UHGV virus genome: UHGV-0250870
DNA length: 44,878 bases
Source: a virus
Direction: 5' to 3' (one strand)
Position numbers: made by a program. Shown piece by piece: positions 18,001-21,000 of this stretch. Position 1 is the stretch's first letter. Each line of letters begins with the position of its first letter.

Positions 18001-21000
18001 TGCCTGCGAAGCGATTCGCTGGTGGATTAAGGACGGTGGCAGAGACTGCCGTATTCGTTCAAACAACTGTTACGGTCAGGTATCCCGTCGCGACCAGGAG
18101 AGTGCGCTGGCGTGCTGGGGAATTGACAGATAAGCAGAATATTTTGCTGAAAAATGCGGTTTGCTCACACGGACGGATAACACGAAATCCTGCGAACTGA
18201 CAAAAACTAAGTGAATAAAAGTAAAAACCCCGTTTGTTGGCTGCAAGCGGGGTTTTGTGTTTCCTGACTCTGGAAAAGTCAAAGGAGAAAGTGTGTTTGA
18301 TTTTAGCAAACTGATTCGGGAGATTCGAGTGATGGCTGAAAAATTATCCACCTGGAAGTTCATTCTTATCTGGCTGGTGTTTGTGATTATGGCCTCCGGT
18401 TATTTCATCGGTCAGATACGCTGGTGGTGAAATGAACCGCGTACTGTGCGTGGTCATCATTGCCCTGCTGGTGGCCTGTGGTGCGCTTAGTCTGGGGCTG
18501 AATCATTACCGTGATAACGCCATAACCTACAAAGCCCAGCGCGACAAAAATGTCAGAGAACTGAAGCTGGCGAACGCGGCAATTACTGACATGCAGATGC
18601 GTCAGCGTGATGTTGCTGCGCTCGATGCAAAATACTCGAGGGAATTAGCCGATGCGAGAGCTGAAAATGAAACTCTTCGCGCTGACGTTGCCGCTGGTCG
18701 TAAGCGCCTGCGTATCAACGCCACCTGTCCAGGTCCCGTGCGTGAAGCCACCGGCACCGCCCGCGTGGATAATGCAACCGGCCCCCAACTGGCAGACACC
18801 GCTGAACGGGATTATTTCATCCTCAGAGAACGGCTGATGACAATGCAGAAGCAGCTGGAAGGGGCGCAGGAATATATCCGCACTCAGTGCACTAAGCTGG
18901 CTTTTTATTATCCGGAGGATACATGAAGAAATTACGGGTAACCGTAGAACCTTTTCAGGGAACAATTCCGTTCCGTATTTTGCAGCGTGGTCGTGTTCTT
19001 GTTGAAGGTTCGTTCAGTGGTAAATGTACGCAATTACACTCCCGGACCTCTCAGGTGAATGCCACGAATGAAGAGCTAACCGTGGAGTGTACGATGAATG
19101 CCGCTAAATGCCGCATGGTATCCGCTGCATTACAGCCAGTGTGTTGAGCGACCTTATTATCCATGCGCGGTATTGTCGCCGTATTCCTGCATTAACAGAG
19201 ACCGCAGCCCGACAGGGAGACTCCTCTGCGCGAGTGTGCGGGGATAATCAAAAACGATACACACCGGGGTTTACCGCGTTAACGGAGCGCGGCGTTGTCC
19301 CCTCATAGTCGCCTGTCCGGTGCGATGGTGAAAGAAACCGAACGTTCATTTCTCGTTATTTGTCATGCTGGTCGGGCGCAGATGCGTTGCATCTGTTGCC
19401 AGCCTTCTCCTGCAGGCTTCAATAACCCACGCTGAAAAGTTACCGGACCCTTTATGCTCAAGGGCTATGTTGATTTGTTCAATTATGTGATTGGGGAAAC
19501 GGATATTGCGGGTTGTGGTTCTGCGGGTCCGGTTTTTCGATGACATATTTATTTCCTTTACTGATTGCCATATGACGGGGATTTTACATGGCTGAGCTTC
19601 GTACACTCCAGAGCAGAATCAAAACACTGAATACCCGACGGGTGAATATTCTGAAGGGGGAACAGCGTCGTGTCAGTGGCAGTGCACGTGTTTCCCTCAA
19701 GCGTCATATCTGGCTGAGGGACGCCGGGCAGTGCTGTATCTGTGGTCGTGTGGTTGACCTCTGTGACAGTGAACTCGATCACCGAATTGCACTTCAGTTC
19801 GGTGGTGGTAATGAGGAGACGAATCTCTGGACGCTCTGTACCGAATGCCATCGACAAAAGTCTGCTCGTGAAGCGGCGGGTGGTATGCCGGACCCGACGC
19901 TGCCGGAGGTGTCCGGAGGTAGTGACAGAGCGGACGACATCATCGGACTGTAACCCGACCCGGGGGGGGTATCATCCGGCGTAAAAAACGATCGCTTTGG
20001 ACACCGCGCCCCCTCTCACGCAGAGAAAAAATTCCCGTTTCAGGGCAGTTAACATGTTAACTGGCTGCCCGGGCATTTTTGCGGTTTTTATCTTTATTAT
20101 TCAGTTTGTTGTGCGGAAAAAATGTTAACAGGCTTTTTCAGCAAATGTTAACCAGGCAGCAGTTAACATTTGCGGCATGAGACGCCGGGGAAAAATGGGC
20201 TGAACCATACCCGGCTGAGTGCGTTCTGGACCCGGGAGGAGGCTGTGCTGACAACGCAAAAACGAAAATTTGCGCTGGCGCTCATGTCCGGGAAAAACAA
20301 AACAGCGTCAGCCATTGCCGCCGGTTATTCGGCGAAGACCGCCAGGGTTAAAGGCTCGCAGCTGGCAAAAGATCCGGAGGTGCTTGCGTTTATAGCCCGT
20401 AAACAATGCGAGACGGTGGAGGTGGATGAGGTTCCTGTTTACCGGCAGAAAAAATCAGAGCAGGAGGATAAACCCCGTCGCCGTGAGGCGGCTGCAATAC
20501 CTCAGCCGGACGAAAATAATCCGGAGATGCCACCATCCGCGGTGATGTCTCCTGGTATTGAATATATGGAGGATGGTCTTCCCGATCCGGTGAAAGCCAT
20601 GGGGCGGATCCTGGTGGAAAACCTCTGCATTGATCCGAAACTGGCACTGGATGCGGCCTGGCGTCTGGCGCAGTTCACGCACCATAAAAAAGGGGATACC
20701 GGGAAAAAATCGGCAAAAGGTGATGCCGCGAAAAAAGCGGCTAACCGTTTTGCGGTGCCACCGCCACCCCGACTGGTGGTGAATAACGATAATGAGGGCA
20801 ACGGATGATACCTGTATGGAGCACAGCCTGCCCGGACTGGGCAGAGCGCCTGAAAAAGGGGCTGTCGATTATTCCGGATCCGATTTATCCGGACGAGGCC
20901 GCACATGCCCTGGCGATTTTTAAACAACTGCGGATTGTGGATGCACCTGGTAGCCCGACGTTCGGGGAGTCCTGTGCACCGTGGGTGTTTGACCTGGTGG

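What the first reader, a model, noticed from the sequence alone, without database searches (positions are those of the whole stretch)
20048..20167. Cluster of GTTAAC repeats upstream of terS as a candidate packaging site
Five GTTAAC hexamers, including the palindrome GTTAACATGTTAAC, occur within 120 bp in the untranslated gap between the HNH gene and terS, where cos or pac recognition elements are expected for HK97-like terminases.
Basis: partly seen in the sequence, partly recalled or inferred. Interest (0 to 1): 0.4.

Follow-up and report, generated by a model that had tools for sequence, protein, structure and literature searches.

The report
Terminase-recognition repeats beside a prophage cos site
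The five GTTAAC repeats are real, strongly conserved, and lie just inside the left end of the packaged phage chromosome, 34 bases from the published cutting site, so they are most likely the sites where the phage's small terminase recognises its own DNA; this is an expected kind of element, but these repeats have not been described.

Summary
Observation confirmed. Five GTTAAC hexamers lie at 20048, 20056, 20124, 20147 and 20162; simulated sequences never gave more than 2 per 120 bp.

The real units are an 18-bp palindrome (20046-20063), AAATGTTAAC (20120-20129) and a 12-bp inverted repeat (20141-20173).

The window is a lambdoid E. coli prophage with the HNH/TerS/TerL head module of Stx1a, Stx2c and BP-4795-type phages.

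The cut site is not inside the cluster. Published PhageTerm mapping of phage Lys8385Vzw (TerS 95.7% identical) puts a 10-nt 3' cohesive end at the equivalent of 20005-20014. The hexamers therefore sit at +34 to +153 on the side packaged first, where lambda has cosB.

Four results support a terminase-recognition array:
- None of the 30 hexamer positions varies in 34 distinct relatives, against 75 of 261 other intergenic positions.
- In 41 distant Enterobacterales relatives the same palindrome sits at +34/+42 and contains the terS start codon, with synonymous sites frozen (Leu2 is TTA in 40 of 41; TTA is 1 of 371 Leu codons elsewhere).
- Two satellite-like elements keep cosN but carry GTTACAC repeats at +33 and a TerS changed in its recognition helix.
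- TerS has an SF6-type helix-turn-helix domain.

TerS binding has not been tested. It is a new member of a known kind and of moderate interest.

The parts
19588..19953 (+). HNH endonuclease gene, presumed accessory factor for cos cleavage
   Evidence: Pfam PF01844, 30.6 bits against a cut-off of 21.4. Annotated as HNH endonuclease in BP-4795 and in RefSeq E. coli. An HNH gene is found upstream of terS in 53 of 60 short-form relatives. The role in cleavage is inferred from HK97 gp74 (Kala et al. 2014, as cited).
19962..19969 (+). G8 run about 45 nt left of the cut. It is conserved across the family and in HK97. Its function is unknown; a cosQ-like role is speculation.
   Evidence: A G6-G9 run lies at the same place in 52 distinct short-form loci, in the Stx lineage, in Burkholderia phages and in HK97. 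ISEc20 is inserted here in PPompW prophages.
19981..19986 (+). GTAAAA, a degenerate left-hand hexamer at -34
   Evidence: 33 of 53 short-form relatives have GT[ACT]AAC at -34 (reported position -32, corrected for the script's anchor being one base left of the cut). In the window it has decayed to GTAAAA.
20005..20014 (+). cosN: CGCGCCCCCT, the predicted 10-nt 3' cohesive end, with the top-strand cut between 20014 and 20015
   Evidence: Published PhageTerm result for Lys8385Vzw (cos = CGCCCCCCCT, 3' ends; PMC7946995). The record boundaries match, with one mismatch in the window. The Bcep176 record ends exactly at the analogous 10-mer CGCACGTTCC.
20015..20045 (+). Conserved cut-proximal block CTCACGCAGAGAAAAAATTCCCG... 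with an A6 tract at +12..+17
   Evidence: Only 3 of 31 columns vary in the Stx lineage. The block is nearly invariant in 52 short-form loci and recognisable in Burkholderia phages.
20046..20063 (.). Perfect palindrome CAGTTAACATGTTAACTG holding hexamers 1 and 2 (+34, +42; centre +40.5). This is the ancestral core site.
   Evidence: Same position in FSL SP-016 and, containing the terS ATG, in all 52 distinct short-form sequences; codons 2 and 3 are frozen in the 41 distinct 5' ends.
20064..20119 (.). A/T-rich variable spacer with T5, T5, T3, T3 and A6 tracts
   Evidence: 18 of 56 columns vary. AA/TT periodicity at 10-11 bp over 20015-20175 exceeds 99.7% of shuffles. No IHF consensus within one mismatch.
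20120..20129 (+). Repeat 3: AAATGTTAAC (hexamer at +110)
   Evidence: Invariant in 34 distinct Stx-lineage sequences.
20141..20173 (.). Repeats 4 and 5: GCAAATGTTAAC - 9 nt - GTTAACATTTGC, a perfect 12-bp inverted repeat (hexamers at +133 and +148)
   Evidence: I3. The hexamers are invariant in relatives.
20174..20244 (+). Variable distal spacer ending in the terS ribosome-binding site GGGAGGAGG (20234-20242)
   Evidence: 26 of 71 columns vary; sequence read.
20245..20808 (+). terS, small terminase (Terminase_2). The N-terminal helix-turn-helix domain is the proposed reader of the hexamers.
   Evidence: Pfam PF03592, 36 bits against 26.1. AlphaFold N-domain pLDDT 91-95. Foldseek match to the SF6 G1P DNA-binding domain 4zc3: target-normalised TM 0.85, rmsd 1.6 A. 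Start as annotated in BP-4795 and RefSeq.
20805..22466 (+). terL, large terminase (ATPase and nuclease) that cuts at cosN
   Evidence: Pfam PF03354 and PF20441. Closest non-enteric relatives are Pseudomonas, Burkholderia and Xanthomonas (Xp10, CP1) siphophages at 47-60% identity.

Best explanation
The GTTAAC cluster is the terminase-recognition half (cosB-like) of the cos site of a lambdoid prophage that uses an HNH + TerS + TerL packaging module.

TerL, with the HNH protein, makes staggered nicks at cosN (20005-20014) and leaves 10-nt 3' cohesive ends. The hexamers lie at +34, +42, +110, +133 and +148 on the side that enters the capsid first.

I propose that the N-terminal helix-turn-helix domains of the oligomeric TerS read these hexamers. 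The palindrome at +34/+42 would be the ancestral core site. The three extra copies, joined by an A/T-rich bendable spacer, would give further contacts that hold the DNA on the TerS ring and place TerL/HNH on cosN.

Shown here or in the literature: the repeats, their position relative to mapped ends in a close relative, their conservation, and the fold of the TerS domain. Inferred: that TerS is the protein that binds them, and how the complex is arranged.
For: 1. Position. In Lys8385Vzw, whose virion ends were mapped, the five hexamers occupy +34..+153 of the left end. The window differs by one base in the 10-nt overhang.
2. Conservation in the Stx lineage. In 34 distinct sequences, 0 of 30 hexamer columns vary against 75 of 261 other intergenic columns (Fisher p = 7e-5); using the 8-mers gives 0 of 38 (p = 5e-6).
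3. Deep conservation at the DNA level. In the distinct short-form relatives (52 upstream sequences; 53 unique -150..+300 segments; 41 distinct terS 5' ends; TerS 33-48% identical; Atlantibacter, Kluyvera, Enterobacter, Citrobacter, Serratia, Erwinia, Pantoea and others), [GA]T[AT]AAC-ATG-TTAAC lies at +34/+42 and contains the terS start codon. Leu2 is TTA in 40 of 41 distinct 5' ends, although TTA is 1 of 371 Leu codons elsewhere in those genes. Thr3 is ACA in 40 of 41, against 23% elsewhere. Codons 4, 5 and 7-10 vary synonymously.
4. Natural uncoupling. In the Stx lineage, and in a Morganella prophage, terS starts further downstream. There the true start has drifted to GTG-CTG-ACA or ATG-ATG-CTG, and the old ribosome-binding site in front of 20054 has decayed. 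A TTAAC-type hexamer still stays next to the cut: GTTAAC at +34/+42 in the Stx lineage, ATTAAC at +36 in Morganella. The constraint therefore follows cosN, not the start codon.
5. Enrichment. GT[ACT]AAC-type hexamers occur at 25.6 per kb in -40..+50 against 0.74 per kb in the rest of the loci.
6. Covariation. Two unrelated small elements without terL keep the cosN block, and one matches the window exactly from cosN through about +17. Both carry GTTACAC repeats starting at +33: three copies in one element (two in the gap, one inside terS) and five in the cos-terS gap of the other. Their TerS has KGWQL where the phage TerS has KGSQL, inside predicted helix 32-40.
7. TerS has an SF6/SPP1-type DNA-binding domain.
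8. A/T tracts in 20015-20175 are phased at 10-11 bp (p about 0.003).
Against: - There are no binding or packaging data for this TerS or for these repeats.
- In HK97, the only solved cos TerS-DNA complex, the site is at +15..+29. The equally conserved proximal block here (+1..+31, with an A6 tract) could be the primary site.
- Hexamer spacings (8, 68, 23, 15 bp) show no simple helical phasing.
- Stx-lineage sequences are 95-99% identical and related by descent, so the Fisher test overstates independence.
- Part of the frozen ATGTTAACA in short-form phages could reflect translation-initiation preferences.
- The covariation rests on two element types whose mobility has not been tested.
- End mapping comes from a relative, not from this prophage.
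- No IHF consensus was found.
Confidence: 0.66

Rival explanations
1. TerS recognition lies in the cut-proximal block (+1..+31, CTCACGCAGAGAAAAAATTCCCG), as in HK97. The GTTAAC hexamers would then be accessory: architectural, or bound by another packaging component, or acting in termination rather than initiation.
For: The HK97 TerS minimal site is +15..+29 and needs an A/T tract. The proximal block with its A6 tract is as conserved as the hexamers, across enteric and Burkholderia phages and in the satellite-like elements.
Against: HK97 gp1 is unrelated to this TerS and, according to PMC11331095, has no defined DNA-binding domain. The proximal block is shared by elements with different TerS types, so it behaves like a common TerL/HNH substrate. 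The hexamer motif, in contrast, changes with the TerS type.
Confidence: 0.12
2. The hexamers are operators for another DNA-binding protein, or parts of a promoter. Candidates are the adjacent YlcI/YnfO (DUF3950) protein, which from its sequence I take to be ribbon-helix-helix-like (not tested here), the HNH protein, or a host factor. A minus-strand promoter would read toward cosN.
For: DUF3950 is present in 37 of 41 Stx-lineage loci and in 0 of 60 short-form loci, so it co-occurs with the five-repeat form. A sigma-70-like match on the minus strand (TTAACA, 18 nt, TAACAT, with a TG extension; 20151-20122) is built from repeats 3 and 4.
Against: Lambda carries an 86% identical DUF3950 core at 48148-48303, next to its own cos. 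There is no GTTAAC cluster in the 2 kb around it. The co-occurrence concerns a single clade. The core palindrome is conserved in 60 loci that lack DUF3950. The number of promoter-like sites in the region equals the chance expectation (2 against 1.3 +/- 1.2). Such a transcript would have to cross cosN and run antisense through HNH.
Confidence: 0.08
3. The extra copies are inert relics of a duplication of the terS 5' end (ATGTTAAC = Met-Leu-Thr). The deep conservation of ATGTTAACA would reflect only coding and translation-initiation constraints.
For: ATGTTAAC encodes the conserved TerS N-terminus MLT. The present start GTGCTGACA looks like a decayed copy. The 190-bp insert begins directly after ATGTTAAC.
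Against: Relics should decay, yet all five hexamers are invariant while the flanks vary. The copy that kept the start function is the one that decayed, whereas the copy at +34/+42 became a perfect palindrome and lost its ribosome-binding site. The non-coding left half-site is also conserved. TTA at 40 of 41 against 0.3% elsewhere is beyond ordinary codon preference.
Confidence: 0.07
4. The ATG in the palindrome starts a 24-residue hydrophobic peptide (20054-20128, MLTGCPGIFAVFIFIIQFVVRKKC), and the conservation reflects that gene.
For: The ORF is intact in 31 of 34 distinct Stx-lineage sequences and has a membrane-like core.
Against: The ORF is frameshifted or truncated in 3 of 34 sequences. 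The peptide variants listed all reflect amino-acid changes; synonymous changes were not tallied. The Shine-Dalgarno sequence present in short-form relatives has decayed here. The ORF covers only hexamers 1 to 3 and cannot explain the inverted repeat at 20141-20173.
Confidence: 0.03

Closest known systems
Phage lambda cosB (R3-I1-R2-R1 sites bound by gpNu1, next to cosN)
   Same: Several copies of a short motif lie within about 150 bp of the cut, on the side packaged first, between cosN and the small-terminase gene. They are read by a helix-turn-helix domain of TerS. A bendable segment lies between the sites. A change in cosB can change packaging specificity.
   Different: The TerS family differs (PF03592, not Nu1). 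The ends are 10-nt 3' overhangs, not 12-nt 5' overhangs. An HNH partner is present. No IHF consensus was found. The motif itself is a 6-bp palindrome. In most relatives the core site contains the terS start codon.
HK97 cos and its TerS site at +15..+29 (Chechik et al. 2024, PMC11331095)
   Same: The order HNH - G-run - cut about 45 nt later - terS is the same, and an A/T tract follows the cut. A 10-nt 3' overhang is mapped for this family; for HK97 that figure is from memory of Juhala et al. 2000 and was not checked here.
   Different: HK97 gp1 is unrelated to this TerS and, according to PMC11331095, has no defined DNA-binding domain and threads DNA through its ring using an arginine clamp. 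It has a single 15-bp site rather than a hexamer array.
SPP1/SF6 pac site (pacL and pacR boxes bound by G1P)
   Same: The TerS DNA-binding domain has the same fold (4zc3: target-normalised TM 0.85, rmsd 1.6 A). The general picture of several short boxes on bent DNA flanking the cut comes from my own knowledge of the SPP1 literature.
   Different: SPP1 packages by the headful route from one pac cut. Here the ends are precise cohesive ends made at every cos, and an HNH protein is present.
Published cos of Stx1 phage Lys8385Vzw (Zhang et al. 2021, PMC7946995)
   Same: It is the same module (TerS 95.7% identical) with the same five hexamers. Its cohesive end CGCCCCCCCT corresponds to window 20005-20014.
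   Different: In the passages retrieved, that paper reports only the 10-nt end from PhageTerm. The repeats are not mentioned, and GTTAACATGTTAAC occurs in no paper of the searched library.

Membership tests
cos site of HNH-dependent, 3'-overhang (HK97-type) packaging modules | Lies between an HNH endonuclease gene and terS-terL | tested here: met
   HNH 19588-19953, terS 20245-20808, terL 20805-22466.
cos site of HNH-dependent, 3'-overhang (HK97-type) packaging modules | Virion DNA has defined cohesive ends that map to this locus | tested here: met
   Met for a close relative only. PhageTerm on Lys8385Vzw gave 3' cohesive ends CGCCCCCCCT, and the record boundaries equal window 20014|20015. Not measured for this prophage.
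cos site of HNH-dependent, 3'-overhang (HK97-type) packaging modules | Cleavage requires the HNH protein together with TerL | not testable with these tools
   Inferred from HK97 gp74 (Kala et al. 2014, cited).
cosB-type terminase recognition array | Repeated short motif next to the cut, on the side packaged first | tested here: met
   Five hexamers at +34..+153.
cosB-type terminase recognition array | Motif is under stronger constraint than its surroundings | tested here: met
   0 of 30 against 75 of 261 variable columns. Synonymous sites are frozen in short-form relatives.
cosB-type terminase recognition array | Motif changes together with TerS specificity | tested here: met
   GTTACAC arrays go with KGWQL TerS in two element types that share cosN. 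This is correlative and rests on two cases.
cosB-type terminase recognition array | Direct sequence-specific binding by TerS | not testable with these tools
   Needs gel-shift or footprinting experiments.
cosB-type terminase recognition array | IHF site between the repeats (a lambda-specific feature) | tested here: not met
   No WATCAANNNNTTR match within one mismatch in 19954-20245. Phased A/T tracts are present instead.
Terminase_2 (PF03592) small terminase with an SF6-type HTH domain | Pfam match above the gathering score | tested here: met
   36 bits against 26.1, residues 1-56.
Terminase_2 (PF03592) small terminase with an SF6-type HTH domain | N-terminal fold matches the solved G1P DNA-binding domain | tested here: met
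   pLDDT 91-95 for residues 1-50. Match to 4zc3: target-normalised TM 0.85, rmsd 1.6 A, 30% identity. The profile search against PDB sequences was weak (E = 7.5e-4).
HK97 gp1-type small terminase and its +15..+29 site | TerS is homologous to HK97 gp1 | tested here: not met
   BLASTP E = 0.93. HK97 gp1 has no Pfam match at E<=0.01, including PF03592.
pac site (headful packaging) | No fixed ends; terminally redundant, permuted genomes | tested here: not met
   PhageTerm classed the relative as cos with 3' cohesive ends.

The most novel reading that the evidence does not exclude
The hexamer arrays would act as a swappable packaging address read by the TerS recognition helix (Ser37 in the phage TerS, Trp in the variants). 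TerS-encoding satellite-like elements in E. coli keep the helper's cosN and proximal block but rewrite the address from GTTAAC to GTTACAC. This would divert the helper's TerL/HNH to their own DNA. It would be a cos-type counterpart of TerS redirection by SaPIs, aimed at a packaging module present in about a quarter of complete E. coli genomes, including Stx1a and Stx2c phages.
Probability: 0.35. Interest if true: 0.65.

Novelty: new member of a known kind. Interest (0 to 1): 0.42.

Why it matters
This packaging module occurs in 1277 of 5426 complete E. coli genomes, with up to 7 copies per genome. It is the module of Stx1a, Stx2c and BP-4795-type Shiga-toxin phages.

Defining its full cos site (G-run, 10-nt cosN, proximal block, GTTAAC array) gives a minimal fragment for transduction and cosmid-type tools. 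It also helps to judge which prophages can still be packaged.

It offers a simple system for asking how an SF6-type TerS reads DNA in a cos phage. Natural variants are available: a single start-codon-embedded palindrome, a five-copy array, and a GTTACAC swap.

If the satellite reading is right, it also identifies elements that could interfere with, or be spread by, Stx phages.

Tried and rejected
- Single-protein scan of genome contigs with TerS found no relatives. The alignment-based scan did.
- Rfam search of 19800-20400 at E <= 1: no match.
- RNA folding of 20015-20250: z = -1.7, not notable.
- No intrinsic terminator lies in the gap. The promoter-like count equals chance.
- IHF consensus: no match in the gap.
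- Small ORF 20054-20128: rejected as a gene because of frameshifts in 3 of 34 sequences, amino-acid-changing variants and a decayed ribosome-binding site.
- DUF3950/YlcI operator idea: rejected because lambda has a close homologue beside a different cos with no GTTAAC cluster.
- An apparent internal duplication of the cos region (short repeats D3, D5, D6) is not collinear, so I treat it as chance.
- Full-text search for the cos and palindrome sequences found no relevant paper among the 20 listed of 63; the palindrome GTTAACATGTTAAC occurred in none.
- L100, which lacks DUF3950, turned out to be a rearranged locus with a truncated HNH gene and is uninformative.
It was repeated with alignment A2.
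Full report
**1. The observation**

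GTTAAC occurs at 20048, 20056, 20124, 20147 and 20162. All five lie in the 291-bp gap between the HNH stop codon (19953) and the terS start (GTG at 20245).

The cluster is far beyond chance:
- The rest of the window has 11 copies in 44.7 kb.
- 300 Markov simulations of the window never gave more than 2 copies in 120 bp.
- A Poisson estimate for 5 or more in 120 bp anywhere in the window is about 8e-6.
- 5000 simulations with the local base composition never exceeded 3 copies.

The real units are longer than the hexamer:
- a perfect 18-bp palindrome, CAGTTAACA|TGTTAACTG (20046-20063);
- AAATGTTAAC at 20120 and 20143;
- a perfect 12-bp inverted repeat, GCAAATGTTAAC - 9 nt - GTTAACATTTGC (20141-20173).

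**2. Context**

The window is a lambdoid E. coli prophage: replication genes, nin region, Q antiterminator, tRNAs, lysis genes, then head and tail genes.

Around the finding lie these genes:

| Feature | Coordinates |
|---|---|
| lysozyme | 17600-18133 |
| Rz | 18432-18926 |
| YlcI/YnfO (DUF3950), minus strand | 19346-19606 |
| HNH endonuclease | 19588-19953 |
| TerS (Pfam Terminase_2) | 20245-20808 |
| TerL | 20805-22466 |
| protease-capsid fusion | 22447-24468 |

The HNH-terS-terL stretch is 93-99% identical to 94 phage records, nearly all Stx1a, Stx2c or Stx2a prophages, plus BP-4795, 2851, 1717 and YYZ-2008. The intergenic region occurs in 1277 of 5426 complete E. coli genomes.

**3. Where the DNA is cut**

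One of the related records, phage Lys8385Vzw (MT225100), was sequenced from induced virions. [quoted passage not shown]

The record ends at ...GGACACCGCCCCCCCT and starts at CTCACGCAGAGAAAAAATTCCCG.... In the window this is 20005-20014 (CGCGCCCCCT, one mismatch), followed by 20015.

The Burkholderia phage Bcep176 record ends exactly at the analogous 10-mer, CGCACGTTCC|CTCACGCGCAGAAAA.

HK97 has the same general layout. A G9 run lies about 40 nt before the end, and terS begins at +50.

Counting the first base right of the top-strand cut as +1, the hexamers lie at +34, +42, +110, +133 and +148. This is the region between cosN and terS, where lambda has cosB.

**4. Conservation in close relatives**

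I aligned 34 distinct sequences of this lineage (TerS 66-100% identical; IMG/VR loci L089-L129 plus phage records). None of the 30 hexamer positions varies, against 75 of the 261 other intergenic positions (Fisher p = 7e-5). With the 8-mers the count is 0 of 38 (p = 5e-6).

Variable columns by sub-region:

| Sub-region | Variable columns |
|---|---|
| left of cosN | 35% |
| spacer 20064-20119 | 32% |
| 20174-20244 | 37% |
| +1..+31 | 10% |
| palindrome | 6% |
| repeats 3-5 | 13% |

The sequences are related by descent, so these p-values are generous.

**5. Distant relatives: the decisive comparison**

An alignment-based scan recovered 56 further loci, giving 52-53 distinct sequences around the cut, from many Enterobacterales genera plus Salmonella phage FSL SP-016 (TerS 33-48% identical). 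All share a short-form cos:

G-run ... GGACACCGC[G/C]CCCCCT | CTCACGCACAGAAAAAATTCCCCTCTGGAGGGT[G/A]T[A/T]AAC**ATG**TTAACAG...

The palindrome sits at the same +34/+42, and the terS start codon lies inside it.

In the 41 distinct 5' ends:
- Leu2 is TTA in 40. TTA is 1 of 371 Leu codons elsewhere in these genes.
- Thr3 is ACA in 40, against 23% elsewhere.
- Codons 4, 5 and 7-10 vary freely at synonymous sites.

This shows a DNA-level constraint on ATGTTAACA.

Two lineages uncouple the start codon from this position. In the Stx lineage (this window), terS starts about 190 bp further on with GTG-CTG-ACA. In a Morganella prophage it starts with ATG-ATG-CTG-ACA. In both, a TTAAC-type hexamer remains next to the cut: GTTAAC at +34/+42 in the Stx lineage and ATTAAC at +36 in Morganella. 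In the window the old ribosome-binding site GGAGGG has decayed to CAGGGC, while the site has become a perfect palindrome.

The constraint therefore follows cosN, not translation.

GT[ACT]AAC-type hexamers are 34 times denser in -40..+50 than in the rest of these loci. A left-hand copy at -34 is present in 33 of 53 loci. In the window it has degenerated to GTAAAA (19981-19986).

**6. Covariation with TerS**

Two kinds of small E. coli elements encode a TerS of the same Pfam family but have no terL.

- **P0061 type.** The order is integrase, small ORFs, primase, TerS, a capsid-family protein. The element is about 8.5 kb and is inserted between a sulfatase gene and narP/ccm. Its cos reads CGCCCCCCGT|CTCATTCGTAGAAAATTTT..., followed by GTTACAC at +33 and +45 and a third copy in terS.
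- **P0055 type.** The order is HNH-like gene, TerS, capsid. Its cosN and the first ~17 bases to its right are identical to the window (CGCGCCCCCT|CTCACGCAGAGAAAAAA). It then carries five GTTACAC-type copies over about 225 bp before terS. This is the window's long layout with a different hexamer.

Both TerS proteins have KGWQL where all phage TerS proteins have KGSQL.

The AlphaFold model of the window's TerS has a confident four-helix N-terminal domain (pLDDT 91-95). Residue 37 lies in helix 32-40. The domain superposes on the SF6 G1P DNA-binding domain (4zc3: target-normalised TM 0.85, rmsd 1.6 A). The next matches are the SF6, PaP3 and NV1 small terminases.

The hexamer motif therefore changes with the TerS type, while cosN and the proximal block stay constant. 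That is what is expected if the hexamers are the TerS address and the cosN block is the common TerL/HNH substrate. The evidence is correlative, rests on two cases, and the mobility of these elements has not been tested.

**7. Proposed mechanism**

During late growth, TerS oligomers bind the GTTAAC hexamers through their helix-turn-helix domains. The palindrome at +34/+42 is the ancestral core. The copies at +110, +133 and +148, reached across an A/T-rich segment with A/T tracts phased at 10-11 bp, add contacts that hold the DNA on the TerS ring.

TerL, with the HNH protein, then nicks both strands at 20005-20014 and leaves 10-nt 3' ends. Packaging proceeds rightward through terS.

Shown: the anatomy, the mapped ends in a close relative, the conservation, the covariation and the fold. 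Inferred: that TerS is the binder, how the complex is arranged, and that HNH is required (by analogy with HK97 gp74).

**8. Rivals**

- **TerS binds the proximal block (+1..+31) as in HK97, and the hexamers are accessory.** This remains possible. However, HK97 gp1 is unrelated, and the proximal block does not change with the TerS type.
- **Operator for the neighbouring YlcI/YnfO protein.** The gene co-occurs with the five-copy form (37 of 41 against 0 of 60), but that is one clade. Lambda has an 86% identical core next to its own cos, with no GTTAAC cluster in the surrounding 2 kb.
- **Minus-strand promoter built from repeats 3 and 4**. The number of such matches equals chance, and the transcript would be an odd one.
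- **Inert relics of a duplicated terS 5' end.** This is contradicted by the invariance of the hexamers and by the fact that the start-codon copy is the one that decayed.
- **A 24-residue hydrophobic ORF (20054-20128).** It is frameshifted in 3 of 34 sequences, its peptide variants reflect amino-acid changes, and it has no ribosome-binding site.

There was no Rfam match, no notable RNA structure, no terminator and no IHF site.

**9. Comparison with what is known, and novelty**

The element works like lambda cosB and like the SPP1 pacL/pacR boxes. It belongs to the HNH-dependent, 3'-overhang cos class. Its 10-nt end has already been published for a close relative.

The hexamer array, its embedding of the terS start codon in most relatives, and the GTTACAC variant were not found in the searched literature.

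I rate it a new member of a known kind. The location is what a specialist would expect. The recognition motif and its natural variants are new and directly testable.

Noticed in passing
L189:3446-11944 and L190 (E. coli contigs); cos at L189 about 9900-9990: An integrative element of about 8.5 kb with integrase, DUF4222, primase (AAA_25 or D5_N/DUF5906), TerS (162 aa), a capsid-family protein (307 aa) and a 93-aa ORF. It has no terL, HNH or portal gene. It carries a cosN of the same family as the window's (CGCCCCCCGT|CTCATTCG...) followed by GTTACAC repeats instead of GTTAAC. It looks like a TerS-encoding phage satellite that uses helpers of this packaging family.
   Followed up: partly
L191:6206-8281 (E. 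coli contig); cos at 6616-6650: An HNH-like gene, TerS (157 aa) and a capsid gene, without terL. cosN and the first ~17 bases to its right are identical to the window, followed by five GTTACAC-type copies in the 225 bp before terS. It is embedded next to a type I restriction gene, an IS66 fragment and a type III secretion cluster, so it may be a remnant.
   Followed up: partly
L187:1026-1200 and L188 (Morganella morganii prophage): Four GTTAA[C/T] copies lie to the left of the G-run, on the other side of cosN, and a single ATTAAC lies at +36. terS starts further downstream with ATG-ATG-CTG. The same motif is used in a different arrangement.
   Followed up: partly
window about 19966 (G-run 19962-19969): In PPompW prophages an IS110-family element (ISEc20) is inserted at this point, between the HNH gene and cosN. 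This may inactivate or alter the cos site of those prophages.
   Followed up: no
window 56-80: GTTAACCAGTTAACAATTAAC: three TTAAC units at 8-bp spacing, the same spacing as in the cos palindrome. They lie inside the replication (DnaT-like/O-type) gene, 20 kb from cos. This may be chance or a set of origin iterons.
   Followed up: no
window 24680-27102: The portal gene is split into two overlapping ORFs (24680-26044 and 26041-27102), and RefSeq marks the homologue as frameshifted. The same split is annotated in the virion-forming phage Lys8385Vzw, so it need not mean the prophage is defective.
   Followed up: partly
short-form terS genes (L009-L028, L133-L168), about +262 from the cut: Val-Asn dipeptides in these terS genes are encoded by GTAAAC in 53 of 112 cases, although GTA is the rarest Val codon. 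A GTAAAC-type hexamer at about +262 (the PAVN motif) is present in 45 of 53 loci. This may be a further hexamer site inside the coding sequence.
   Followed up: partly
window 19346-19606 (minus strand): The YlcI/YnfO (DUF3950) gene overlaps the HNH start by 19 nt on the opposite strand. An 86% identical core lies at lambda 48148-48303, unannotated in J02459. The gene therefore recurs next to cos sites of unrelated types.
   Followed up: partly
window 13736-13985: Three tRNA genes (Met-CAT as called by ARAGORN, which RefSeq annotates as Ile in the related strain, then Arg-TCG and Arg-TCT) lie in the late-region position where stx genes sit in Stx phages (my own knowledge, not checked here). The window carries no stx genes at that position.
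   Followed up: no
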